This document shows, piece by piece, positions 2,554-43,229 of a stretch of 64,000 nt of DNA. Position numbers and translations under genes: made by a program. The notes under the pieces are model-generated. The model searched no databases. It had not been told where the DNA came from and worked only from the letters and a program-made list of their open reading frames with translations. This DNA comes from Paraspadella gotoi (lineage: Eukaryota; Animalia; Chaetognatha). Where the stretch lies: positions 7,376,103-7,440,102 of the forward strand of contig CM119264.1 of the NCBI GenBank assembly GCA_051294375.1, written 5' to 3'. The stretch's first letter is position 1, and each line of letters starts with the position of its first letter.

Positions 2554-3280
2554 GACGAGAAAGATAAAATTATACAAATAAATTGTCATCACCATCGAAT
2601 TCTACAGACTTGTTCACACTGAAATAGCTATGTACCTTATTCAATCTGTTATATTTTGCTATTTTTAAACGCCCTACTAACCAGCCTTATCCTCACTATA
2701 AGAGCTTAATAGGAACAGTAATAATAGGGTGTATAACGGAAACTATCACAGGGCCTCGCTATCAAGCCCGAAGTTACCCGTTTTTTTTGGTTTTTTTTCT
2801 GTAAAAAACAAAGAATCGCCCTTATTTATTTCGTTTGAAACGCAAATTTTTTTTTTTTCGGAATTTGTTTCGTCTCAACTATTGGCCTTCGAAAGTTAAG
2901 AGAGAGAGAGATGCACATACACACACATAAAGCTTCTATCAGATTTTGGAAAGGATATTGGTTCGGTTGTGAGGTCAGCTGAAGATGAGAACAGATAAGA
3001 TTGAGTTAGAGGGAATAAGACATGAAAAATAGTCAATTACCGTGAGAACATTTAAATTAACTTTTGTTATATATAATAAAGACAAACATAAATTGGTTGT
3101 ACCAATTTTAGGCCCATATTTATATATACAGGGAGGTCCGGTTCTAATGGGACTAACTAGTTTGATAAAAAAAAGTGATTATATTTTAAAATTAGGGTTT
3201 TTTTTATCGATATTAAAAACGTTTGGAAAATCTCATAACTGTAATAGATTATTTTTATGATCTTATTTTTTTTGTAATGT

Positions 3281-4040
3281 TTTTAGTCGGATCTGCTTGT
3301 CAGCAGATCCCGATTCTATACTTCACTTTGTCGGACCGTCGGTCCGCCCCCTCAATCTTGTTGGGCACTAACTTATATCATGTCAGAACATTGAATTATG
3401 ATAAAATATACAAAAAAAAATGCTGTCTGTCCGTCCGTCCGTCCCACCTTAGCAAAAAATACTAATTACTCGTGATTGGATGGATGGATTGGAATGTAAT
3501 TTTGTCTGCGAGTAGGGAAGTGTGTGATTGAGCTGTATTTTAAGTTTGGATAGAATCGTCCAAGTGCAAATGATTTTAAATGGAAAAAACAAAAAATATA
3601 TTTCACTATTTGAATACCAATTGCTCATGAGTGGATGGGGCGATTTTAAAAAAAAATTGTATGTGGATAGGAAAGTGTGTGATTAAGCTGGAAATCAAGT
3701 TTCGATGGAATCGTTTGAATGGAAGTGAGTTTAAATGGAAAAGACAAAAATCCTGTTTCATTAATTGATTATGCTTCTTTTTTTATATTAAATGTAAATG
3801 TAAGATTTATTAATTAATCAATATTTATTAATCAGTCAATCAATCAAGTCAGTCGTTATTGGCATCATTCTCATTGTTGTCATTGCTTTTGTCGTGGTTA
3901 GTGACCTAAAAACAAATATTTGGGATTTAATTAATTAATTGCCTAATTAATTAATTCATTAACTTAAATTATTCAAGTATTAATTAATTATCATTAATGA
4001 GCGTTGGCAGGTCCAACATTGTTTGCTCAAACTTGTTTTT
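3281..4040 (+). mobile_element. Non-autonomous Helentron/DINE-1-like element (HINE), copy 1
   Basis: T-run, 5' subTIR GTCGGATCTGC (3286-3296) with adjacent inverted repeat AGCAGATCC, (GTCC)n microsatellite at ~3425-3443, 3' subTIR GCAGGTCCAAC (4007-4017), stem-loop GTTTG-CT-CAAAC (4021-4032), T-run. Reverse-complement copies at 5494-6178 and 29366-30470. Confidence 0.75.
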
Positions 4041-4996: not shown

Positions 4997-5493
4997 ATTC
5001 TCTAAGTTAAATTTAAAAAAAAGCATAATAATTCTTAATATTTCCTCTTGATTAATGAAATTATAGGATAGAAAAGCGGAATGTCTTACGATCTTTTCAA
5101 TAATTGTAAATTTTTTAATAGTAATAAAAGTTGTAGGAATGGTAGCTTTCTTAAAGGCTTGGTTGTAAAAGCATATCTCTAAACATTTTGAGAAGGTTAT
5201 GGTTGTTAAAGGTAAAGTATTTAATAGATTATATTCTTTTATTATTTTTTTATAAATATATTAATTTTTATATTATTATTGTTATATTCATATGTCCAAA
5301 CGGTTTTTTAAATTTAGTTCCAAAAAGATCGACCTCCCTGTATATATATGAAATTGGTACAACCAATATATTTAAACTTAGAAGGCTACAACTATTTTAA
5401 GTTAAATTGCAATAAATTTATTTCAAAATGACGTGAATTTTTAAGAATATCCTCGAAAAAATTACAGTAAAAGATTTAGTCATAAGAATAAAT

Positions 5494-6178
5494 AAGTTTG
5501 AGCAAACAATGTCGGATCTGCCCACGATCATTATTGGTAATTAAATAATAATTAAATAATTCAAGTTAATTAATTAATTAGTCAATTAATAAATTAACTT
5601 TATCCAATATCTTTGTTTTGATAGATTGACTGATTAATTAATAATTGATTAATTAATTGATTAATTATTTAATTTATACATCTTGCATTTACATTTAATA
5701 TAAAAAGAAAAAGAAGCATAATCAATTAGTGAAACAGGTTTTTGGTTTTTTCCATTTAAACTCATTTCCACTCAAACGATTCCATCGAAACTTGATTTCC
5801 AGCTTAATCACACACTTTCTTACCCACATACAAAACTTTAAGTCAATTGCCCCATTCACACATGAGTAATTGGGGTTCAAATAATGAAATATATATATTT
5901 TTTCCATTTAAACTAATTTCATTTCAGACGATTCCATCGAAACTTCATATCCAGCTCAATAACACCCTTCCCTACCCACACACAAAATTTCATTCCAATC
6001 CATCCATGCAATCATGAGTAATTGGTGTTTTTTGCTAAGGTGGGACGGACGGACATAGTTTTTTTGCATAATTTATCATAGTTTGATGTTCAGACTTGAT
6101 ATAAGTGAATGCCCGACAAGATTGAGGGGGCGGACCGACGGACCGACAAAGTGAATTATAGAGTCGGGATCTGCTGAT
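5494..6178 (-). mobile_element. Helentron/DINE-1-like element, copy 2 (5' end slightly truncated)
   Basis: Reverse complement of 3281-4040: GTTTGAGCAAAC hairpin (5496-5507), subTIR GTCGGATCTGC (5511-5521), (GGAC)n at ~6041-6054, ends at gggatctgctga. Confidence 0.7.
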
Positions 6179-6950
6179 AAAAAGCGTTAAGCAGGGGCGA
6201 GAAGAGGAGCTTTCTCTTCCTTTTTAACCTCAGGGGCGGGGAGACTTTTCAGGTTAGGCGATATCAACGAACTCGTCACACGACCGTTTGACAAGAATAC
6301 TAATTCAAAGTAAACCCGTTTCCTTCTTTAACCAGCTCGACTTTTAAAAGCTAATTGATTAATACGACTCGACCGTCTAATCACACTCTCGTTAATCGAG
6401 GAGTTTCATCTTTTTTTCCTCATTTCACTTCTTTTAATTTAAAACTTGTACTTTTTTCTTTCAATAAATTTAAGAAGGTAAGTGTACATTTTATTTACTC
6501 GTAAAAAACTTTTTTTTCTCTTTTTTTTTTTCCTTTATTCCTTTTTTCTTTCTTTCTAATCATTTCTTGCTTTTTCATACTAAACCATTTTACAATTAAA
6601 TTTTTGATATATGAAGTACCTATATGATGTACGAAGGAACTTTTTTCAGAGTAATTTAGAAATAGAATAAACATCATTAAATAAAATCTCCCGAAGTGGA
6701 GTATCAATTTAAAATCGTTTTTAAACGAAAGAGGTGAAACCAAAAAAAAAAAAAAGCTGCTAATGGCAATAACGCTTATTTTGGAGTCGAGTGCTGAGTA
6801 AGTATATTTACATTTTATTTTCTAGGCAGGCAAATGATGTTTTCATTGTTTAAAGGACAATATGTGAGATAAGTTAGGGACTCAATATGTGATGGACATA
6901 CTTTCTATGAAATCTTAGGATCGGATTATCTTGAGGTTACGCTGACAACA

Positions 6951-9521
6951 ATGGAATCAGAAAAAGAGAAAGGTAAACCAAATTGGGGGGGAAAAAGCAA
7001 ATAAAAAGGCAAAGAACCAACAGATGACCAAGGACAATGGGGTTGCAATTTCTGTAGATGGTCATGATCTGGAAAGTTTATATACTATCGACGTTGATCT
7101 CAAACATGAAGCCAACGAACCATAACAACAATAATAGAAGAAAAGGGTTATCAGTGCCGCGAATACGCTGTCTCTTTCATCCAACCACTCGATTTAAAGC
7201 CCGAGATAAATTTATTTAACTTTATAACCCTAAATTTTGTTCATCGCAATTTCATTTTTTCCATAACAGACGTACAGTAATTTGATTTTCTGTTAGTAAT
7301 GGGTTTTAACGGTTGTTTAAATTAATAATCACTAAAACAAAGGACTTTTTTTTTCGCCTGATTATTCAAGCAATCGAACAGTCTTCTCTCTCACTCCGCC
7401 TGTTCAACACTTAGTTTTCCACGTCTCACAGAATGGCATGCGGCCTTCTGCCTGTTCGACATCAATGGCGACGGAAAGATTTCCATGGAGGAACTTTCGA
7501 TAGGAATGAGAAAACTGGGCCACTTCCCTTCTCAGCGCGAGGTGGAGACGATGCTGGCCGAAAACGATTTGGACGGTCAGAGTGGCGGAAGGGGGGCGGA
7601 GTGTGATTGGGTGGAACTGGTGGCCTTGATAGTGAGGGGCTGAGATTGCTGGGTGGAGAATTGTATATAAGTATCTAAAGTAGAATAGCGTCGAATTTTT
7701 TTTTTACTAAGATACTCTTTTCTTTTTATTTCGTATTTTATATTTTTTTTTCAATTCAGTTAATGAATTGAAATTGAAATCATTGCCTAAATAAAGTAAA
7801 ATGAATAGATAATATATTGGTTTCTAAAAAGCTGAATTGAAATTGAAATCATTGCTTAAATAAAGGAAAATGAATAGATAATATGTTGGTTTCTAAAAGG
7901 CTGAATTGAAATTGAAATCGTTGCCTAAATAAAGGAAAATGAATAGATAATATATTGGTTTCTAAAAAGCTGAATTCTAAAGGCTAATTGAATTTGAAAT
8001 CATGACTAAATAAAGTAAAATGAATAGATAATATATTGGTTTCTAAAAGGCTCACTGTTTCGTGACAACAAACAAATAACTCAAAAGTACAGTCTTCATC
8101 CTAGAAGGCACGAGTAAAAAAAATAAGGATATTAAACCAATAGCCATCCCAGGGATTTTTCTAAATGATGGTCCATTAAAAAAAAAGTTAAATTCAGGTG
8201 ACGGAAATTTGGACTTTAATGAGTTTATGAAATCATTGCTTAAATAAAGTAAAATGAATAGATAATATTATTGGTTTCTAAAAGGCTGAATTGAAATTGA
8301 AATCATTGCTTAAATAAAGTAAAATGAATAGATAATATATTGGTTTCTAAAAGGCTGAATTAAAATTGAAATCATTGCCTAAATAAAGTAAAATGAATAG
8401 ATAATATTTGGGTTTCTAAAAGGATGAATTGAAATGGAAATCATTGCCTAAATAAAGTAAAATGAATAGATAATATTTGGGTTTCTAAAAGGCTGAATTG
8501 AAATTGAAATCATTGACTAAATAAAGTAAAATGAATAGATATATATGTTGTTTCTAAAAGGCTGAATTTGAAATTGAAATCATTGCCTAAATAAGTAAAA
8601 TGAATAGATAATATATTGGTTTCTAAAAGGCTGAATTGAAATTGAAATCATTGCTAAAAAGTAAAATGAATAGATAATATATTGGTTTCTAAAAGGCTGA
8701 ATTGAAATTGAAATCATTGCTTAAATAAAGTAAAATGAATAGATAATATATTAGTTTTCTAAAAGGCTGAATTGAAATTGAAATCATTGACTAAATAAAG
8801 TAAAATGAATAGATAATATATTGGTTCTAACGTGACAACAAACAAATAACTCAAAAAAAATTTAAATTCAGGTGACGGAAATTTGGACTTTAATGAGTTC
8901 ATGTATTTGATGGATTCCTCCGACAATCCGGGTGAGGACGACCGCGACGAAGCCAGGGCCCTCTACCTCGCCTTCAGGGTGGGTCCTTTAACGAAACCAA
9001 TTGCTTTTGAAGGAACTCAAAACCTCCACTATCCCTCGGACGCAGATGTTCGACAAGTCCGGATCCGGATTCATCTCGGCCACGGATATTCAAGCCTTAT
9101 TCGAACGGATCGGTATCGAAGTTACCATTTATGAAGGTGAGGCACGATTTTACCCATGGCATCCGTTGGCTACTCCAGCACAAACATGTCGATTGGCCGT
9201 TCAATCATGCTCCAAAAATATATATTTAAATTAAACGAGATAATGGTTTAGAAAAGTATTATTTTTTAAAAACATACATCCACATTAAGTCTGTTAAACT
9301 TATCTTCCAATTAAAGTTGACCAAATGATGGACGAAGTCGATCTGGATGGCGATGGAAGAATCGATTTTGAAGGTCAGTATTTATTTAAAACCCGATTAT
9401 ATGTTGTACAAAACATATATGCTGTACAAACCAGCGTCAAACTGTTATGTATGAAATATAAAAAATATTTTCAACAGAATTTCGCGTCTACCTGGAGAGC
9501 AACGATTACAACATTTTGTAA
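6951..9521 (+). CDS. Calmodulin-like four-EF-hand calcium-binding protein (~155 aa, 6 exons)
   Basis: Exons 6951-6972, 7432-7575, 8872-8978, 9046-9136, 9317-9373, 9478-9521, all GT-AG and phase-consistent. Protein: MESEKEKEWHAAFCLF-DINGDGKISMEE-LSIGMRKLGHFPSQREVETMLAEN-DLDGDGNLDFNE-F...AFRMF-DKSGSGFISATD-...MMDEV-DLDGDGRIDFEE-FRVYLESNDYNIL*. The start is uncertain because the frame is open upstream to an acceptor at ~6918. Confidence 0.9.
7763..8830. repeat. Intronic minisatellite, ~69-bp unit, ~13 copies
   Basis: Unit gctgaattgaaattgaaatcattgc(t/c)taaataaagtaaaatgaatagataatatattggtttctaaaag, with period 69 (e.g. 7831->7900). Interrupted at ~8055-8230. Confidence 0.95.
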
Positions 9522-10089
9522 TGAAGCATTACATTTTTTGTATACATGTTATTTTCTCAAACTAAGTAAGGGTTACTAGTTACTAGTTTTTTTATAGTTT
9601 TTTAATAGTTCTGATAATTTTCGATTACATATCCGTCATTAGAAGCAATCCAATTCGACCTCACTCTTTATTTAAACGAAATAGTTGTCTGGTGTGCTGA
9701 GAGCATATCTTTAATTTCTAATAGATTAAGTAATTAAAGACCTTGGAATAAGCAGACATCTTTTATCATTTACCTTTAATTTTTAGTAAAGCAGAAGTGA
9801 ATTGACAAATTGTTGGCAGTATTGATAACCAATTAGTAGAGGTTGCGCCAGCTTAAAGCTAAGAGGAATAAAAAATTTTAATGCATTTCTATGAAAAAGT
9901 AAAAAATTTAATCAAATAGTACTATATCTTTTGGTTCTTGAAACGCCTTATATTACTGTAGTCGGGCATTGCCTAGGTTCACCCCGCTATAAGCATGACA
10001 CCTTCAGTCCTGACCCGGTGGCTCATTGAGTAAAGCCATCAGCTCATGACCACTAGGTACCGGTTCAATACCAACCTGGTACCTACCCT

Positions 10090-10168
10090 GCGGGGAAGCT
10101 GAGGACGGCCGTAAGCCGCCTTGGGGGCGTGGCAACCCCTCAAGCCTGGTTCCAAGCCCAGGACCCGT
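10090..10168 (+). ncRNA. Twister ribozyme, type-P5 permutation (LTR1)
   Basis: P5 GCGGG(10090-10094)/CCCGT(10164-10168); GA-GGA (10101-10105); P1 palindrome CGGCCG; TAA (10112-10114); T2 GC (10118-10119); P3 CTTGGGGG/CCCTCAAG; P4 CCTG/CAGG closing L4 GTTCCAAGCC (10149-10158); T1 UCC:GGA. P2 is short and imperfect (GCC vs GCT). Confidence 0.75.
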
Positions 10169-10239
10169 TCCATGGCTACTAAGGGGGTTATAGAAGTTAC
10201 GGATAGTCATCTTCAGCCCACTTAGCGCCTTATCCACAC

Positions 10240-10250
10240 TGGTGAGCCCA
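10240..10250 (+). promoter_or_regulatory. Primer-binding-site-like motif
   Basis: TGGTGAGCCCA begins 1 nt after the LTR's terminal CA; TGG is complementary to the tRNA 3' CCA. Cognate tRNA not assigned. Confidence 0.6.
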
Positions 10251-10351
10251 TCCTGTCGAGCGTATTCCAACCTTCTGATTCCAGGTCCATGGACGTGCTG
10301 AAGATTGCTCCCCTCCCTCCACTGGAAGCAGTGCAGGGTGGGTGACAATCT

Positions 10352-10359
10352 GGGGGGCA
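10352..10359 (+). promoter_or_regulatory. Polypurine-tract-like motif
   Basis: GGGGGGCA immediately precedes the TG start of LTR2 at 10360. Confidence 0.55.
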
Positions 10360-10492
10360 TGTAGTCGGGCATTGCCTAGGTTCACCCCGCCTATAAGCAT
10401 GACACCTTCAGTCCTGACCCGGTGGCTATTGAGTAAAGCCATCAGCTATGACCACTAGGTACCGGGTTCAATCCCAACCTGGTACCTACCCT

Positions 10493-10570
10493 GCGGGAAG
10501 CGTGAGGATGGCCGTAAGCCGCCTTGGGGCGTGGCAACCCCTCAAGCCTGGTTCCAAGCCCAGGACCCGT
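10493..10570 (+). ncRNA. Twister ribozyme, type-P5 permutation (LTR2)
   Basis: GCGGG-AA-GCGT-GAGGA-TGGCCG-TAA(10515-10517)-GCC-GC-CTTGGGG..CCCTCAAG-CCTG-GTTCCAAGCC-CAGG-A-CCCGT. Same elements as the LTR1 copy. Confidence 0.75.
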
Positions 10571-10838
10571 TCCATGGCTACTAAAGGGGTTATAGAAGTT
10601 ACGGATACTAAAGGGGGTTATAGAAGTTACGGATAGTCATCTTCAGCCCACTTACGCCTTATTCCCAAAGAGAAAAAAAAATGTTTCTTTTTATACTATT
10701 GCTGTAACAATCGGGAACTCGTGTTGAAAATAGAATTTAAAATTGACCAGGAATAAGTTTCTATACACTCGATCGTTGTTTACTAGGACATATTTTTTTA
10801 GCTATTCATTTCTTCTAACAAATAGCAATTAAACGGAA

Positions 10839-11831: not shown

Positions 11832-15919
<4,088 letters not shown>

Positions 15920-29227: not shown

Positions 29228-29590
29228 AAGATATTGTTAATAATAACAGATGTTAATATCATATATCATATATATTCAAAAGAGGAAAAGAAGGAGAGAG
29301 AGAGAAAAGAGAGAGTTATTGTTCAAATTGTAATAGTATCCTTAGCTGCAGAAAAAATCTCTTAGAAAAAAAAAAGTTTGAGCAAACAATGTCGAATCTG
29401 CCCACAATCATTATCGGTAATTAATTAATTAATAATTAAATAATTAATAATTAATTAATTAATTTATTTTTTTTTAATTAGGCAATTAATTAATTAATTT
29501 GATCCCAAATGTTTGTTTTTAGGTCTTTTCGTCACTAACCACGACAAAAGCAATGACGACGATGAGAATAATACAGATAATGATTGACTT

Positions 29591-29875
29591 TGTGGCTAAG
29601 GCGCTAAGTGGGCTGAAGATGACTATCCGTAACTTCTATAACCCCCTCTAGCAGCCATGGAACGGGTCCTGGGCTTGGAACCAGGCGTGAGGGTTTTCCA
29701 CGCCCCCAAGGCGGCTTACGGCCGTCCTCAACAATTCCCGCAGGGTAGGTACCGGGTTGGTACTGAACCCGGTACCTAGTGGTCATGAGCTGATGGCTTT
29801 ACTCAATGAGCCACCAGGTCACAACTGAAGGTGTCATGCTTAAAGGCGGGGTGAACTTTGCTATGCCCGACTACA
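29591..29875 (-). mobile_element. Solo LTR of family 1 with 4-bp TSD
   Basis: Reverse complement of 9957-10238. Begins TGTGG and ends CTACA. ACTT lies on both sides (29587-29590 and 29876-29879), while the homologous site in HINE copy 1 (~3846-3849) has a single AAGT. Confidence 0.9.
29662..29741 (-). ncRNA. Twister ribozyme, type-P5 permutation (solo LTR copy)
   Basis: Minus strand: GCGGG-AATTGTT-GAGGA-CGGCCG-TAA-GCC-GC-CTTGGGGG..CCCTCACG-CCTG-GTTCCAAGCC-CAGG-A-CCCGT. P2 is weak and P3 has one mismatch. Confidence 0.65.
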
Positions 29876-30579
29876 ACTTAATTGATTGACTGATTATTTA
29901 ATTATTGATTAATTATTTGTCTAATTGATTAATTAACTGATTAACTATTTTATTAATTAATACATCTGCATTTACATTTAATATAAAAAGAAAAAGAAGC
30001 ATAATCAATTTCATTTAAACTCATTTCCACTCAGACGATTCCATCGAAACTTGATTTCCAGCTTAATCACACACTTTCTTACCCACATACAAAATTTCAG
30101 GTCAATCGCCCCATCCACTCATGAGCAATTGCTTTTCAAATAGTGAAATATAATTTTTTTTCCATTTAAACTCATTTACGCTTGGACGATTCCATCGAAA
30201 CATAATATCCAGCTCAATCACACACTTCCCTACCCACAAACAAAATTTCATTCCAATTCATCCATCCAATCACTAGTAATTGGTGTTTTTTGCAAAGGTG
30301 GGACGGACAGACAGATGGACGGACGGACATCTTTTTTTGCATAATGTATCATAATTCGTTGTTTTGACATGATATAAGTGAGTGCCCGACAAGATTGAGG
30401 GGGCGGACCGACGGACCGACAAAGTGAATTATAGAGTCTGGATCTGCTGAAAAGCAGATCCGACTAAAAACTACATTTAATTTCCGCTTTCGTCTCGGGT
30501 TTACACGTTTTTGTTACTTACAACAAATGTTGACAAAATCGATTAATTCTTCATTTCGCTGCGATGAATTTTACTGAGG

Positions 30580-39100: not shown

Positions 39101-40037
39101 TATTATTTTATAAGGATATTACTATAAATATATTGTGTATATACTCTCTTTTTGTTGTTTTTGAAGTATTAGGAGAAAAACAGTTTTGCTTTGACAACGA
39201 TTTATTTGACATAATTAGCCAATGGCTGATACTGTTAACCAAACAATATAAGTAAAATATTTTTTGTACTTTTTAAATATGCTATTTCACATGTAAATCT
39301 CCTTGTTTGTTGAGTCAAATAAATTTTTTGTTCCCCAGTGCTCCACTCTAGTGAGCACATCACTCAAATTTATTTTCATTTCATACGTAAATGAAACACT
39401 TTCGGAGTTTTCTTTCTTTAATTTTTCAATTTCTTCGGCTCTATCTTGCTGTCACTGTTGCTCGCGACAGTTTGACCCTTTATCCATTAACTTCAGATCG
39501 CACGATTGAAGAGAAATAAAGGAATGAATAAAATGGTAATATGAAGAGAAAAATAGATGTTATACATGTTCATCCATGTTTTATTCTCATATTCTCCTCT
39601 TTCCACTTCTCCCTTTTTCTTTTTTTTTGGGGGGGGTCAGTTTTATCCATATCTCCCTCTCCTCTTCCTCCTCCTTTCCTTTTTCATTCTTGCAGTTTTG
39701 AACTTGTTACTTGTTTGTCTTCTTTTTATTGCCAAGGTCTTCGTTTCTCTTAAGTCTTTCTCTTCCGCTTCCTCTTCCAGCCATCTCGATATAAAAACGC
39801 GATGATCCAGAATTCTTGAAATCTTTATCAAGAATCCAGAGGTGTATATTAAAAAAAAAAATAACAGAAAAATATTGAAAAGTAAAAAAACTTGTTCTTA
39901 GCAAATTCTATTATATACTTGATAATATTTATAATAATTTAAATTAAAGAAATACAAATTTCATCTAATAAAAGTATTATTTGGTAAAATATACATCTTT
40001 GAATTTTTTTTGACTGAAAAGCTTTACGAAAGCGGCA

Positions 40038-43000
40038 ATGAAGTCAGCACTCATCTTTTTATTCGTGGCCACCTGCCTGCTGTTGCAAGTCACTGGAGGC
40101 CTTGGCAAAAGAAGGAAAAGATCCTTGAAGAAACAACTATCCGAGTATCTACTGTCCAAAAGAAGGGCGGCGACGTTTGACAAGAGAGGCAAGTGCGACC
40201 ACGATATCGTGGGATTGCTGAAACGAGACTGTTGCGACAAGGTTTGCACGTTCGAAGAGAGGGCCGAGTATTCCGAAGATTGCGGCTGGACTCGCACCAA
40301 CGACGTCGTCTGCGAGTTATCAATCAGGGAAGGCAAGTCCTGCAAGTGCAAGACCTCAAAAGGCGTTTTATTCGAGTGCGCTTCATCCTCTGTCGATGTC
40401 AATCAGGCTTGCATCTGCGGCGAAAGTAAATTTTGGTGTGGGACGGGACGGAAATGTGTTCTCAATAGCCAAAAGTGCGACAGCAAAAACGACTGCGGAA
40501 ATTACAACGATGAAAAGGGATGCAAGATCCCAACCGGTCTCTCGATCACCCTCGAGAGCGGGCAGCCTAGATATTCGGGTAATGTTTTTATAGGAGGGCG
40601 GCCAGTGTGCCGAACTGACTGGGGCACCAACGACGCAAAGGTTGTGTGCAAGCAGTTGGGATTTTCCGACCACACCAAGGCAAGGTCTTTTCAGAATGGT
40701 TATTTTGGCGCCACAGGTCGAAATTACATAATTAGCGAAGTAGAATGCACTGGTAGCGAAACAAACTTGAGAAATTGCCCGCACAATACAATGCCGGACA
40801 GTTATTGCCTAAAATATGAAGGAGCCGGCGTTGAATGCATGGATCCTTTGACTTTGACTTTAAAAGAGGGGGCTAATACTAAAGAAGGCTTTGTTTATCT
40901 CAGCGATTACGCCGCATGCAGCGACAGGTGGTGGCCGGCGGCGAGCCAGGTCGTTTGCAATCAACTCTTTAAAAGCGAAATGCATGGCACGGGAAACGTT
41001 CCGGTTTTCACGACGAGAAGTTACTTTCTTGTCTCAACTGACCGCTTTGTCATAAACTACGCGCGCTGCAACGGCGACGAGGACTATTTAACTGATTGCT
41101 ATGACTTCATGACTTATTTCAAATCATCGTGCCGGAGCGGAAAAAGAGTCAAAGTTCAATGTGCAAAATGTTTCGCCTCTGAATTGGTGTCGATTATACA
41201 ATCGGTGGTGCTGTCCAATGACGCAGCCCAAACCCGAAATTCGGTAAATCAGGCGCTGACAACATTGACCACCACTTGCTACAACTGGGATTGCTCAAAA
41301 ACCACCGACACGCATCCAGATTACTGCCTGACAAAAGCCGCCTTGGAAGACCTGGCGATCATTTTGGAAAACAGGGAAAAAAAATTTTTACTCACTAACC
41401 GGTTCAACGTGAAGGATAAACTTCAGCACAACTTTATCAAGAGTCAATTCAGCGATTTGCAGAATTCATTGAACGGGTTGCAAACACACATCACGAGTTT
41501 CCAGACTCAACTCTCACAATATTTTGTTCAGACTTCCCAGTATCAAGAGACGAGACTCCAAGGTGAAATTCGTGATCTTATTTCACTGGTGCATGACCTT
41601 AACATTGAAAAACAAGAACAAGAAGACAAGTTCGAGTCTTTGGTCCAAACCTTAGTAGCGCACAGTACCGCCAGCGTTGCTGCTGAATTCGCCCATCGCA
41701 TGATCAGACTTGCTTTCAGAATAGTTCAGACTTATGTTCAAAAAGATCCCACAGTGCTTTTTGACGTTGACGACGAACTTGCGGCTGTCGCCAAAGCAGG
41801 TAATAACTTTGCTTCCATTGCCTTTTTGGTTCAGTTAGTTCCGAAATTTGTTGCCACTTCTCAAAATATAGTCGACAATACAAAGGCGAATAAGGATGCC
41901 TTTCTTGCTTTAGCCCAGTTGTTAGACGACGAAAATGTTATGACATATGACCAAGCAAAAAGTTATTCAAGAGTTTCTATCGTAAGCCCCTACGGCGTTA
42001 CTGACTTATCAGATATGCAAATTTATCTGGAGGACATTGTGGATGGATTGTGCGATGTGCTTGTTGATGGTGAAACTCTTTCGAGCCAATTGGCACAAAC
42101 GGGAGCGACTGTGTCCGGAATTTGTCATAAAACTAAATTGCAAGCAGGAAAGGTCATTGCTTACCATGAACAAATACACGACGTATATTTAGGCATGTCA
42201 AATTACGTGAAAGATATTGCTAAAAGTAAACTCGAAGTACACCTTGCTGAACAAATGGCGGGAACTTTGTCGCATAGTTTAGGAAATCAAGTAAAGATGG
42301 CAATTACAAGACTACAATCCATGATAGTTTTGCGAGTTGAAAAACGTAACCTGATTCAAGAGGCGTGTCAAACCATAACTTACATGAATCACAACGTCGA
42401 GCTCCCTGCCTGCGCGAGTTTGAGAGTCAACATTGACGGGAGTCTTTCTCCTCTTTTGTCATTCGATTATGAGCGTGACATGTGCAGTGATTTTAGTACC
42501 GTTCAAAAATACATCAACTTTCCTCTGGACATGCAAAATCCCGAATTTGACATTACGGATATTTTACCACAATCCAGCAGTGAAGAAGGCCAACTGTACT
42601 TTGAAATACCCAACAATCAATGGTTGGCCGACCACGGTTGGATCGATCAATATTCCACTCGGTATGGACCCTTCTATCTTAAGAGCGTGCAGATCATTCC
42701 TCCTCCTATGTTCCCCGAGCACAGCTTGACGATATCTTCCACTGTTGCTGTGGTGGAAAATATAGTCGCCAATCAAGATTGGAATTTCCAAGAGAATCTC
42801 TCGGCCATGTCAAGCGTCTTGATGAACGGTGTCTGCAGCGAAAGCACCCGACCCAACCCCTACAACCTGCCCGGTTGTCCAACTAACTTGCCCGTCTGCT
42901 TGACGTCGGAGGGCAAGTTCGGAGGCCCCATGTACCCTAGCCTCAAATCCAAATTCAGCATCAAGTTCCGCCACAACAAACCCATTGCTCTTAACTTTCC

Positions 43001-43229
43001 CTCTCCTAAGACCCCGTTGTTCCTTAAGGCAAGGGTAGAGTTCTGCTACAAAAGCCAATCAAAGCGTGGACTGAAGGTCGAGAATTTCGAGAAGAGAGGA
43101 ACCTGTTGCGCCTCCAATGGAAGCTCTTATTACAACATTGCCAACCAGTTGAAGGGTCTTCCGCCATGTCAGGCGTGCCCGGCAGGGACGAAGCCTGCTA
43201 TGCATGGTTATTACTGCGAAGAAGCTTGA
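40038..43229 (+). CDS. Intronless secreted 1063-aa protein: signal peptide, basic propeptide, Cys-rich motif, LDLa, 2x SRCR, long helical region, beta-rich domain, C-terminal CxxCPxG module
   Basis: Uninterrupted 3192-bp ORF. Hydrophobic N-terminus MKSALIFLFVATCLLLQVTG; LDLa CGESKFWCGTGRKCVLNSQKCDSKNDCGNYNDEKGC (aa ~127-162); SRCR GNVFIGGRPVCRTDWGTNDAKVVCKQLGF..VECTGSETNLRNC..AGVEC (~170-268); second SRCR EGFVYL..CSDRW..ASQVVCNQL..CNGDEDYLTDC (~274-376); terminal CQACPAGT..YYCE. Confidence 0.92.
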   Translation: MKSALIFLFVATCLLLQVTGGLGKRRKRSLKKQLSEYLLSKRRAATFDKRGKCDHDIVGLLKRDCCDKVCTFEERAEYSEDCGWTRTNDVVCELSIREGKSCKCKTSKGVLFECASSSVDVNQACICGESKFWCGTGRKCVLNSQKCDSKNDCGNYNDEKGCKIPTGLSITLESGQPRYSGNVFIGGRPVCRTDWGTNDAKVVCKQLGFSDHTKARSFQNGYFGATGRNYIISEVECTGSETNLRNCPHNTMPDSYCLKYEGAGVECMDPLTLTLKEGANTKEGFVYLSDYAACSDRWWPAASQVVCNQLFKSEMHGTGNVPVFTTRSYFLVSTDRFVINYARCNGDEDYLTDCYDFMTYFKSSCRSGKRVKVQCAKCFASELVSIIQSVVLSNDAAQTRNSVNQALTTLTTTCYNWDCSKTTDTHPDYCLTKAALEDLAIILENREKKFLLTNRFNVKDKLQHNFIKSQFSDLQNSLNGLQTHITSFQTQLSQYFVQTSQYQETRLQGEIRDLISLVHDLNIEKQEQEDKFESLVQTLVAHSTASVAAEFAHRMIRLAFRIVQTYVQKDPTVLFDVDDELAAVAKAGNNFASIAFLVQLVPKFVATSQNIVDNTKANKDAFLALAQLLDDENVMTYDQAKSYSRVSIVSPYGVTDLSDMQIYLEDIVDGLCDVLVDGETLSSQLAQTGATVSGICHKTKLQAGKVIAYHEQIHDVYLGMSNYVKDIAKSKLEVHLAEQMAGTLSHSLGNQVKMAITRLQSMIVLRVEKRNLIQEACQTITYMNHNVELPACASLRVNIDGSLSPLLSFDYERDMCSDFSTVQKYINFPLDMQNPEFDITDILPQSSSEEGQLYFEIPNNQWLADHGWIDQYSTRYGPFYLKSVQIIPPPMFPEHSLTISSTVAVVENIVANQDWNFQENLSAMSSVLMNGVCSESTRPNPYNLPGCPTNLPVCLTSEGKFGGPMYPSLKSKFSIKFRHNKPIALNFPSPKTPLFLKARVEFCYKSQSKRGLKVENFEKRGTCCASNGSSYYNIANQLKGLPPCQACPAGTKPAMHGYYCEEA

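What the first reader, a model, noticed from the sequence alone, without database searches (positions are those of the whole stretch)
9957..10667. Candidate twister-ribozyme LTR retrozyme: a non-coding LTR-PBS-PPT-LTR element with a self-cleaving motif in each LTR
Seen: two 282+ bp TG...CA direct repeats around a 121-bp internal region with a PBS-like TGG and a PPT-like G-run, and no credible ORF. Each LTR contains the twister core in P5-permuted order (P5-GA/GGA-P1-UAA-P2-GC-P3-P4/L4 GUUCCAAGCC-A-P5), with correct T1 (UCC:GGA) and T2 (GC:GC) pairings. Predicted cuts after U10112 and U10515 are 403 nt apart, exactly one LTR plus internal unit. The unit is rich in hairpins (TAGGTACC..GGTACCTA; GTGGCT..AGCCAT; CCCTCC-ACTG-GAAG-CAGT..AGGG; LTR TCTTCAGC pairing with internal GCTGAAGA). 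Established: plant LTR retrozymes have this architecture with hammerheads and yield circular RNAs mobilised in trans by Gypsy elements, and described animal retrozymes are non-LTR. Inference: this is an animal-like LTR retrozyme that uses twister instead. I am not aware of such a system being described, but I cannot check the literature. Weakness: P2 is only 3 nt and imperfect in these copies.
Basis: partly seen in the sequence, partly recalled or inferred. Interest (0 to 1): 0.92.

Follow-up and report, generated by a model that had tools for sequence, protein, structure and literature searches.

The report
Twister ribozyme in miniature LTR retrotransposon
A tiny non-coding jumping gene in what is likely an animal genome carries, in each of its two terminal repeats, the full core of a twister self-cutting RNA, so it likely spreads through a 403-base RNA circle like the hammerhead-bearing retrozymes of plants, although cutting and circles are untested.

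Summary
9957-10667 is LTR (282 bp) - 121-bp internal part with TGG primer site and G-run - LTR. A third, solo LTR (29591-29875) has a 4-bp target duplication and an empty site, so the family moved by integrase. All three LTRs keep the twister catalytic core and both pseudoknots in type-P5 order (16 of 250,000 shuffles match the descriptor); predicted cuts are 403 nt apart. Against: Rfam scores it far below threshold (16.4 vs 37.6 bits), P2 has one mismatch in every copy, P1 is only a 6-nt palindrome, a competing hairpin is predicted to block the core, the predicted circle folds no better than shuffles (z -1.2), and the full element has no 4-bp duplication. Single-base indels between the LTRs point to assembly noise. 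No genome, reads or outside relatives were available, so covariation, expression and a helper element are untested. Best reading: a TRIM-type LTR element likely working as a retrozyme with twister in place of hammerhead, possibly cutting as a dimer. Ten paper searches found no such element. The scan noted P5 twisters in Penelope repeats of other genomes, not in true LTRs.

The parts
9957..10238 (+). 5' LTR, 282 bp, TG...CA
9988..9992 (+). TATA-like TATAA about 30 nt into the LTR (one change in the solo copy); promoter role inferred only
10054..10085 (+). 12-13-bp hairpin just upstream of the ribozyme, kept in all three copies
   Evidence: (z -3.5 for 10050-10090)
10090..10168 (+). Twister-like motif, type-P5 order, with P3 and P5; predicted cut between 10112 and 10113
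10106..10111 (+). Minimal P1: 6-nt palindrome, could pair between two LTRs (dimer) or close a 1-bp hairpin; also feeds a competing hairpin
10240..10253 (+). PBS-like site beginning TGG, 1 nt after LTR1; tRNA not identified
10239..10359 (+). Internal domain, 121 bp, non-coding, single copy in the window
10352..10357 (+). PPT-like G6 run ending 2 nt before LTR2
10360..10667 (+). 3' LTR, 308 bp including a 28-bp tandem duplication; differs from LTR1 mainly by 1-nt indels
10493..10570 (+). Second twister-like motif; predicted cut between 10515 and 10516
9943..9951 (+). 9-mer in the left flank identical to 10654-10662 at the end of LTR2; possible microhomology-type duplication in place of a 4-bp TSD
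   Evidence: (18 of about 20,000 random window 30-mers match as well)
29591..29875 (-). Solo LTR of the same family (92% identical), with the twister core at 29662-29741
29587..29590 (+). 4-bp target-site duplication of the solo LTR (other copy 29876-29879); empty site with one copy at 3846-3849 in another copy of the host repeat

Best explanation
This is a miniature non-coding LTR retroelement whose repeats each hold a complete twister core, and it likely works as a retrozyme: its transcript would be cut in both LTRs, closed into a 403-nt circle and copied by a helper retrotransposon. Shown: LTR-PBS-internal-PPT-LTR layout, a solo LTR with 4-bp duplication and empty site (integrase-type movement of the family), and the twister core in all three LTRs. 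Inferred: (1) transcription from the 5' LTR or read-through; (2) cleavage at U^A 10112 and 10515, which removes the terminal redundancy a normal LTR cycle needs; (3) ligation into a circle that carries one whole LTR, the PBS and the PPT; (4) tRNA-primed reverse transcription round the circle and integration by a Gypsy-like helper (4-bp duplication). Most speculative step: the palindromic P1 pairs between the two LTRs, so the full transcript cuts as a dimer while the monomer circle is held in a blocking hairpin and survives.
For: Layout and TSD/empty site. Descriptor chance 28 of 60,000 (lenient) and 16 of 250,000 (P4 >=4 bp, P2 >=2 of 3). A model built from 6 unrelated metagenome twisters ranks the three LTRs 1-3 in the window (E 0.002-0.011; next 0.88; the score comes mostly from P4/L4). 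Natural P5 twisters with a 3-bp P2 exist: 6 of 6 fully paired. 0 of 31 variable LTR positions fall in the 39 core+P5 positions (8 of 282 circular shifts). T1 reads UCC:GGA, a compensated form also seen in natural twisters (L027). High-throughput tests of natural twisters found P1 and P2 imperfections tolerated and pseudoknot or catalytic changes harmful (PMC11662667 sections 32-34); those sensitive positions are intact here. Plant retrozymes share LTR, PBS, PPT, 4-bp TSD, solo LTRs and a ribozyme predicted in a blocked conformation (PMC4918200 passages). No AATAAA/ATTAAA in the element (weak).
Against: Rfam Twister-P5 only 16.4/15.1 bits vs 37.6. P2 has 1 mismatch of 3 in each copy, at different places. 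A competing hairpin has probability 0.93 in LTR1 and 0.98 in the solo copy; the twister-compatible fold costs 7.6 kcal/mol in LTR1, whereas 3 of 4 natural controls fold with P1, P2 and P4 in their minimum-energy structure. Cross-LTR P1 pairing has probability about 0 in the full-length fold and does not appear in co-folds; the isolated duplex is -9.8 kcal/mol. Circle z -1.2, 66% paired, against above 70% quoted for retrozyme RNAs. Another 43-nt invariant run lies outside the ribozyme, so the conservation signal is weak. The full element lacks a 4-6-bp TSD. One full copy only; no expression data, no helper, no tRNA match.
Confidence: 0.58

Rival explanations
1. Ordinary TRIM carrying a captured, now weak or dead twister (for example from a Penelope-like or RTE element) as a passenger; it moves by the normal R-to-R LTR cycle without circles.
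For: Defective P2, near-absent P1 and blocked fold in all three copies; unremarkable circle energy; TRIMs of this size with solo LTRs are known in animals (PMC6934838, PMC4558846, PMC10886601); small-RNA pieces are known passengers or promoters in TRIM LTRs; unchecked scan notes place P5 twisters in Penelope-type repeats.
Against: Every catalytic and pseudoknot position is intact in three copies up to 8% apart; an active ribozyme in both LTRs would destroy the R redundancy; the P2 3' strand lies in the stretch where LTR1 and LTR2 differ by two 1-nt indels, so its reading is unreliable.
Confidence: 0.25
2. The locus is an internally deleted or collapsed copy of a full-size autonomous Gypsy-type element whose own LTRs carry the twister; the ribozyme serves that element (5' end or translation), and the miniature is a by-product.
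For: Only one internal domain is seen; solo LTRs arise from either form; the assembly is gapped and indel-rich.
Against: No gag/pol remnant in the internal part or among 136 of 430 window frames scanned; PBS and PPT both sit correctly on a 121-bp domain, the usual TRIM layout.
Confidence: 0.09
3. The two-LTR structure is an assembly product (duplication or misjoin of solo LTRs).
For: 8 single-base indels and a 28-bp duplication against 2 clear substitutions between the LTRs; no 4-bp TSD; several 25-N gaps in the window, which by my recollection mark long-read gap filling.
Against: The spacer has TGG and a G-run exactly at the LTR borders (201 of 100,000 shuffles), which a misjoin would not create; the solo LTR defines the same ends independently.
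Confidence: 0.04
4. The twister match is chance in a GC-rich LTR.
For: Rfam E 1.1 over 4227 families; a lenient descriptor has one further hit in the window; the three copies are one event, not three.
Against: 16 of 250,000 shuffles; L4 and its closing pairs are identical to above-threshold natural twisters; abutting 8-bp P3, 5-bp P4 and 5-bp P5 are extra, uncounted matches.
Confidence: 0.04

Closest known systems
Plant LTR retrozymes (Cervera et al. 2016, PMC4918200; N. benthamiana NbRZ1, PMC9695139)
   Same: Non-coding; LTRs about 300 bp each with a self-cleaving motif; PBS, PPT, 4-bp TSD, solo LTRs; GC above 55%; cut-to-cut unit equals one LTR plus internal domain; ribozyme predicted blocked.
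   Different: Twister (type P5) instead of type III hammerhead; likely animal host instead of plant; unit 403 nt instead of about 600-1000; circle, cleavage and helper not shown here.
Animal TRIMs (PbTRIM, ta-TRIM PMC4558846, biv-TRIM PMC6934838, Helenus/Ajax PMC10886601)
   Same: Under 1 kb, two LTRs, PBS and PPT, solo LTRs, 4-bp TSD as in animal Helenus and Echinococcus ta-TRIM, which are assigned to Gypsy helpers.
   Different: No ribozyme is mentioned in the biv-TRIM or ta-TRIM texts (0 occurrences); Helenus/Ajax carry tRNA or 5S pieces, not a ribozyme.
Twister ribozyme, type P5 (Rfam RF02684)
   Same: Order P2-GA-T1-P1-N^AA-P2-GC-P4/L4; catalytic G and A, both pseudoknots, L4.
   Different: P1 cut to a 6-nt palindrome, P2 3 bp with a mismatch, an added P3; below the Rfam threshold.
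T-variant twisters of Perere-3/RTE elements (PMC8501958) and metazoan non-LTR retrozymes (PMC7229834; bioRxiv 10.64898/2026.07.22.740005)
   Same: Twister with poor P1 in an animal retroelement; small animal circles cut by ribozymes, some only as dimers.
   Different: Those are non-LTR: type-P1 twister at the 5' end of an autonomous LINE, or type I hammerheads in tandem repeats without LTR, PBS or PPT.

Membership tests
TRIM / non-autonomous LTR retrotransposon | Two terminal direct repeats TG...CA, total under 1 kb, non-coding | tested here: met
   711 bp
TRIM / non-autonomous LTR retrotransposon | PBS complementary to a host tRNA 3' end | tested here: inconclusive
   TGG 1 nt after LTR1; no host tRNA available (none in the window; no genome); self-priming no better than shuffles
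TRIM / non-autonomous LTR retrotransposon | PPT before the 3' LTR | tested here: met
   G6 run ending 2 nt before LTR2, short
TRIM / non-autonomous LTR retrotransposon | 4-6-bp target-site duplication | tested here: inconclusive
   Met for the solo LTR with empty site; not met for the full element
Twister ribozyme (type P5) | Catalytic G, N^AA, L4 consensus | tested here: met
   3 of 3 copies
Twister ribozyme (type P5) | Pseudoknots T1 and T2 can pair | tested here: met
   3 of 3 copies
Twister ribozyme (type P5) | Stem P4 | tested here: met
   5 bp, invariant
Twister ribozyme (type P5) | Stem P2 | tested here: inconclusive
   2 of 3 pairs in each copy; natural 3-bp P2 exists; mismatches often tolerated
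Twister ribozyme (type P5) | Stem P1 | tested here: inconclusive
   6-nt palindrome only; P1 reported dispensable
Twister ribozyme (type P5) | Rfam RF02684 gathering score | tested here: not met
   16.4 and 15.1 bits vs 37.6
Twister ribozyme (type P5) | Self-cleavage at N^A | not testable with these tools
   needs bench assay
LTR retrozyme | Hammerhead (type III) in each LTR | tested here: not met
   No hammerhead family among Rfam matches to E 10; a twister core sits there instead
LTR retrozyme | Cut-to-cut RNA accumulates as a circle | not testable with these tools
   no reads were available
LTR retrozyme | Highly self-paired unit RNA | tested here: not met
   z -1.2, 66% paired, 23 of 200 shuffles as stable; assembly indels may lower it
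LTR retrozyme | PBS/PPT/LTR-end boxes shared with an autonomous Gypsy element | not testable with these tools
   no genome held; viral scan for the LTR-end/PBS motif gave 3 hits limited to the motif
Penelope-like pLTR / non-LTR retrozyme | Tandem repeats without TG...CA ends, PBS or PPT | tested here: not met
   ends, PBS, PPT and 4-bp TSD are present

The most novel reading that the evidence does not exclude
An animal LTR retrozyme that arose independently of the plant family by loading a twister into a TRIM, and that switches it: the two LTRs activate each other through a palindromic P1 (a double twister), release a 403-nt RNA, and the closed circle then folds the ribozyme shut until a Gypsy enzyme copies it.
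Probability: 0.3. Interest if true: 0.9.

Novelty: new variant of a known kind. Interest (0 to 1): 0.72.

Why it matters
LTR retrozymes are described from plants and with hammerheads; animal retrozymes are described as non-LTR. An animal LTR element with twister would show that 'ribozyme in the LTR, circle as intermediate' is a general strategy that does not depend on ribozyme class or kingdom, give twister a defined job in eukaryotes, and add a viroid-sized genomic circle to the candidates for the origin of twister-bearing viroid-like RNAs. It escapes the Rfam threshold, so similar elements may be overlooked in repeat libraries. At 711 bp it is a cheap test system, including for a dimer-acting twister.

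Tried and rejected
Own genome not held. Rfam at gathering: 0 hits in 64 kb. Scan notes by sequence or place: none. Tf1-like self-priming: PBS-LTR duplex matched by 443-865 of 1000 shuffles, rejected. Coding or zeta-like endless ORF: stops in all frames, longest stretch at chance, rejected. 8-bp LTR/internal pairing: chance. An alternative register with a later AA as cut site (suggested by the solo alignment) lacks the T2 GC and fails P2 in LTR1/2; rejected. PBS look-ups in papers gave nothing usable. Host taxon: a transporter exon search found nothing; the SRCR ORF hits with names are animal proteins at about 30% identity. Bacterial promoter scan is not applicable. One search had a mis-indexed structure and is replaced; the core coordinates were off and are replaced.

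Full report
1. Observation. The stretch 9957-10667 stands out as a 57% GC island in AT-rich DNA and consists of LTR1 (9957-10238), a 121-bp internal domain and LTR2 (10360-10667, with a 28-bp tandem duplication). Both LTRs begin TGTAG; LTR1 ends ...CCACA, LTR2 ...CCCA. TGG begins 1 nt after LTR1 and a G6 run ends 2 nt before LTR2; 201 of 100,000 shuffles of the internal domain have both features. There is no credible ORF. This is direct evidence that the family moved by an integrase-type reaction and rules out a Penelope pseudo-LTR or a chance repeat.

2. The ribozyme motif. In each of the three LTRs the parts of a type-P5 twister occur in order (coordinates): P5, P2, GAGGA, P1, U^AA, P2, GC, P3, P4, L4, P4, A, P5. 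The features named as defining in PMC5408937 (passages), namely catalytic G and A, pseudoknots T1 and T2 and the L4/P4 architecture, are all present. A strict pattern finds these 3 sites and none in 100 shuffles of the window; a lenient descriptor matches 28 of 60,000 shuffled LTRs and one other place in the window; adding P4 of 4 bp and P2 of at least 2 pairs leaves 16 of 250,000. The three copies are one event. Rfam is not convinced: 0 hits at gathering, Twister-P5 at 16.4 and 15.1 bits, E 1.1 and 2.3 over 4227 families (about 3e-4 for that one family by my division); the model has no P3 and expects a long P1. From 120 loci fetched with a loose pattern I chose 20 by eye for Rfam; they hold 11 Twister-P5 matches above threshold and one just below. 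Six distinct ones have a 3-bp P2 that is fully paired, so a short P2 is natural. A model built from those six ranks the three LTRs first in the window (E 0.002, 0.011, 0.011; next 0.88), mostly through P4/L4.

3. Weak points. P2's 3' strand reads GCU, CGU and GUU in the three copies, one mismatch of three each time. P1 is a 6-nt palindrome. A hairpin that buries the cut site has probability 0.93 in LTR1, 0.98 in the solo copy and under 0.1 in LTR2; the twister-compatible secondary structure of LTR1 costs 7.6 kcal/mol before pseudoknots, while 3 of 4 natural controls fold correctly at minimum energy. On the other side, a test of about 2,600 natural twisters found P1 and P2 imperfections tolerated and changes in pseudoknots or catalytic bases harmful (PMC11662667, abstract and sections 32-34), and plant retrozyme hammerheads are also predicted in a blocked conformation. 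LTR1 and LTR2 differ by 8 single-base indels and the duplication against 2 clear substitutions (the multiple alignment counts 8 and 7 because it treats two compensating indels as substitutions), unlike LTR1 versus solo (17 substitutions, 5 indels). This pattern and the 25-N gaps suggest uncorrected long-read sequence (inference; the meaning of 25-N gaps is recalled), and two of the indels fall in the P2 3' strand. No variable position falls in the core or P5 (0 of 31; 8 of 282 circular shifts), but a 43-nt invariant run lies outside the ribozyme too, so this is weak. The 403-nt circle folds at z -1.2 with 66% pairing; only the 5' half of the LTR is significantly structured. The full element has no 4-6-bp duplication; instead a 9-mer in the left flank equals the end of LTR2 (18 of about 20,000 random 30-mers), which may mean microhomology-mediated insertion, recombination or assembly error. 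This is unexplained.

4. Mechanism. Cuts after 10112 and 10515 would release 403 nt that contain the 3' part of LTR1, PBS, internal domain, PPT and 5' part of LTR2, with no terminal redundancy. As modelled for plant retrozymes (PMC4918200 passages; PMC7761336 passages), such an RNA can be copied only if closed into a circle, on which a tRNA-primed reverse transcriptase can rebuild two LTRs or a solo LTR. A 4-bp duplication fits a Gypsy helper (PMC10886601 section 16; PMC4558846 passages). The palindromic P1 suggests a refinement: pairing between the two LTRs (-9.8 kcal/mol as an isolated duplex) could form two twisters in the full transcript, as dimeric hammerheads do in amphibian retrozymes (PMC7229834 passages), while the monomer circle stays blocked. 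Folding does not predict this pairing and a 6-nt palindrome arises by chance about 1 time in 64, so it remains a hypothesis. Shown: anatomy, movement, core sequence. Inferred: transcription, cleavage, ligation, helper, dimer. Confidence in the retrozyme-like cycle for the family is 0.58; the main rival is a TRIM with a decayed passenger twister (0.25).

5. Host and relatives. Intron-containing EF-hand and transporter genes flank the element, and an SRCR/LDLa ORF hits named animal proteins, so the host is likely an animal; the taxon is unknown. No genome or reads were available, and no relative was found in viral, metagenome or prokaryote collections, which are not built for animal repeats.

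6. Comparison with what is known. It works like a plant LTR retrozyme but is not a member in the strict sense, since the hammerhead is absent and circles are untested. It meets the TRIM definition (PMC6934838 passages; PMC10886601 abstract and section 3). Twisters in retroelements are reported at the 5' ends of non-LTR RTE/Perere-3 elements (PMC8501958 passages and sections 17, 19; PMC9695139 passages). A July 2026 preprint still divides retrozymes into LTR/type III hammerhead, mainly plant, and non-LTR/type I, mainly animal, with no mention of twister (10.64898/2026.07.22.740005 passages). Twister-bearing circles are known from metatranscriptomes (10.1101/2022.07.19.500677 passages) and tandem ribozymes in totiviruses (PMC13725137 abstract and passages). 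Also read as passages: PMC6765202, PMC5680766. Of ten searches, seven aimed at this combination (9, 22, 48, 49, 57, 84, 92) listed no twister-bearing LTR element; most listed papers were seen only as listings. Roth et al. 2014 and the 2017 paper on dimeric Penelope hammerheads were not held; Repbase/Dfam entries, subscription journals and bioRxiv supplements could not be seen and may hold such an element unannotated. Unchecked notes of this scan describe P5 twisters with a poor first helix in Naiad/Penelope repeats of other genomes, a possible source for capture; none describes a true LTR element.

7. Verdict. Real feature, new variant of a known kind: an LTR/TRIM element with a twister core, likely a retrozyme analogue in an animal. 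Interest 0.72; the dimer-switched version has probability about 0.3 and would merit 0.9.

Noticed in passing
L038 381-425 (-) and 28-294 (-): A P5 twister (34.8 bits) with 3-bp P2 and a short near-palindromic P1 lies about 90 nt upstream of a tyrosine-recombinase C-terminal fragment (Pfam Phage_integrase E 2e-4) whose motif recalls DIRS-type recombinases (recalled); a second natural case of a minimal P1.
   Followed up: partly
L027, L028, L054: Metagenome contigs with two to four twisters each; the ones printed lie just upstream of ribosome-binding sites and start codons.
   Followed up: no
window 40014-43229 (+): Intronless 1071-codon ORF with LDLa and two SRCR domains and about 700 C-terminal residues without a Pfam family; best near full-length relative 28% identical and unnamed.
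   Followed up: partly
window 7433-9520 (+) and about 11900-15500 (+): The element lies between an intron-containing EF-hand (calmodulin-like) gene, with AATAAA at 9867, and a sodium:dicarboxylate symporter gene.
   Followed up: partly
window 3279-4040, 5487-6180, 29367-30471: Three copies of an AT-rich dispersed repeat (about 80% alike) with internal 150-bp subrepeats; one hosts the solo LTR.
   Followed up: partly
window 7760-8056 and 8228-8856: 69-bp minisatellite arrays in introns of the EF-hand gene, with a duplicated stretch that repeats the start of the next exon (8179-8229 = 8853-8903); unit lengths 66-70 suggest noisy assembly.
   Followed up: no
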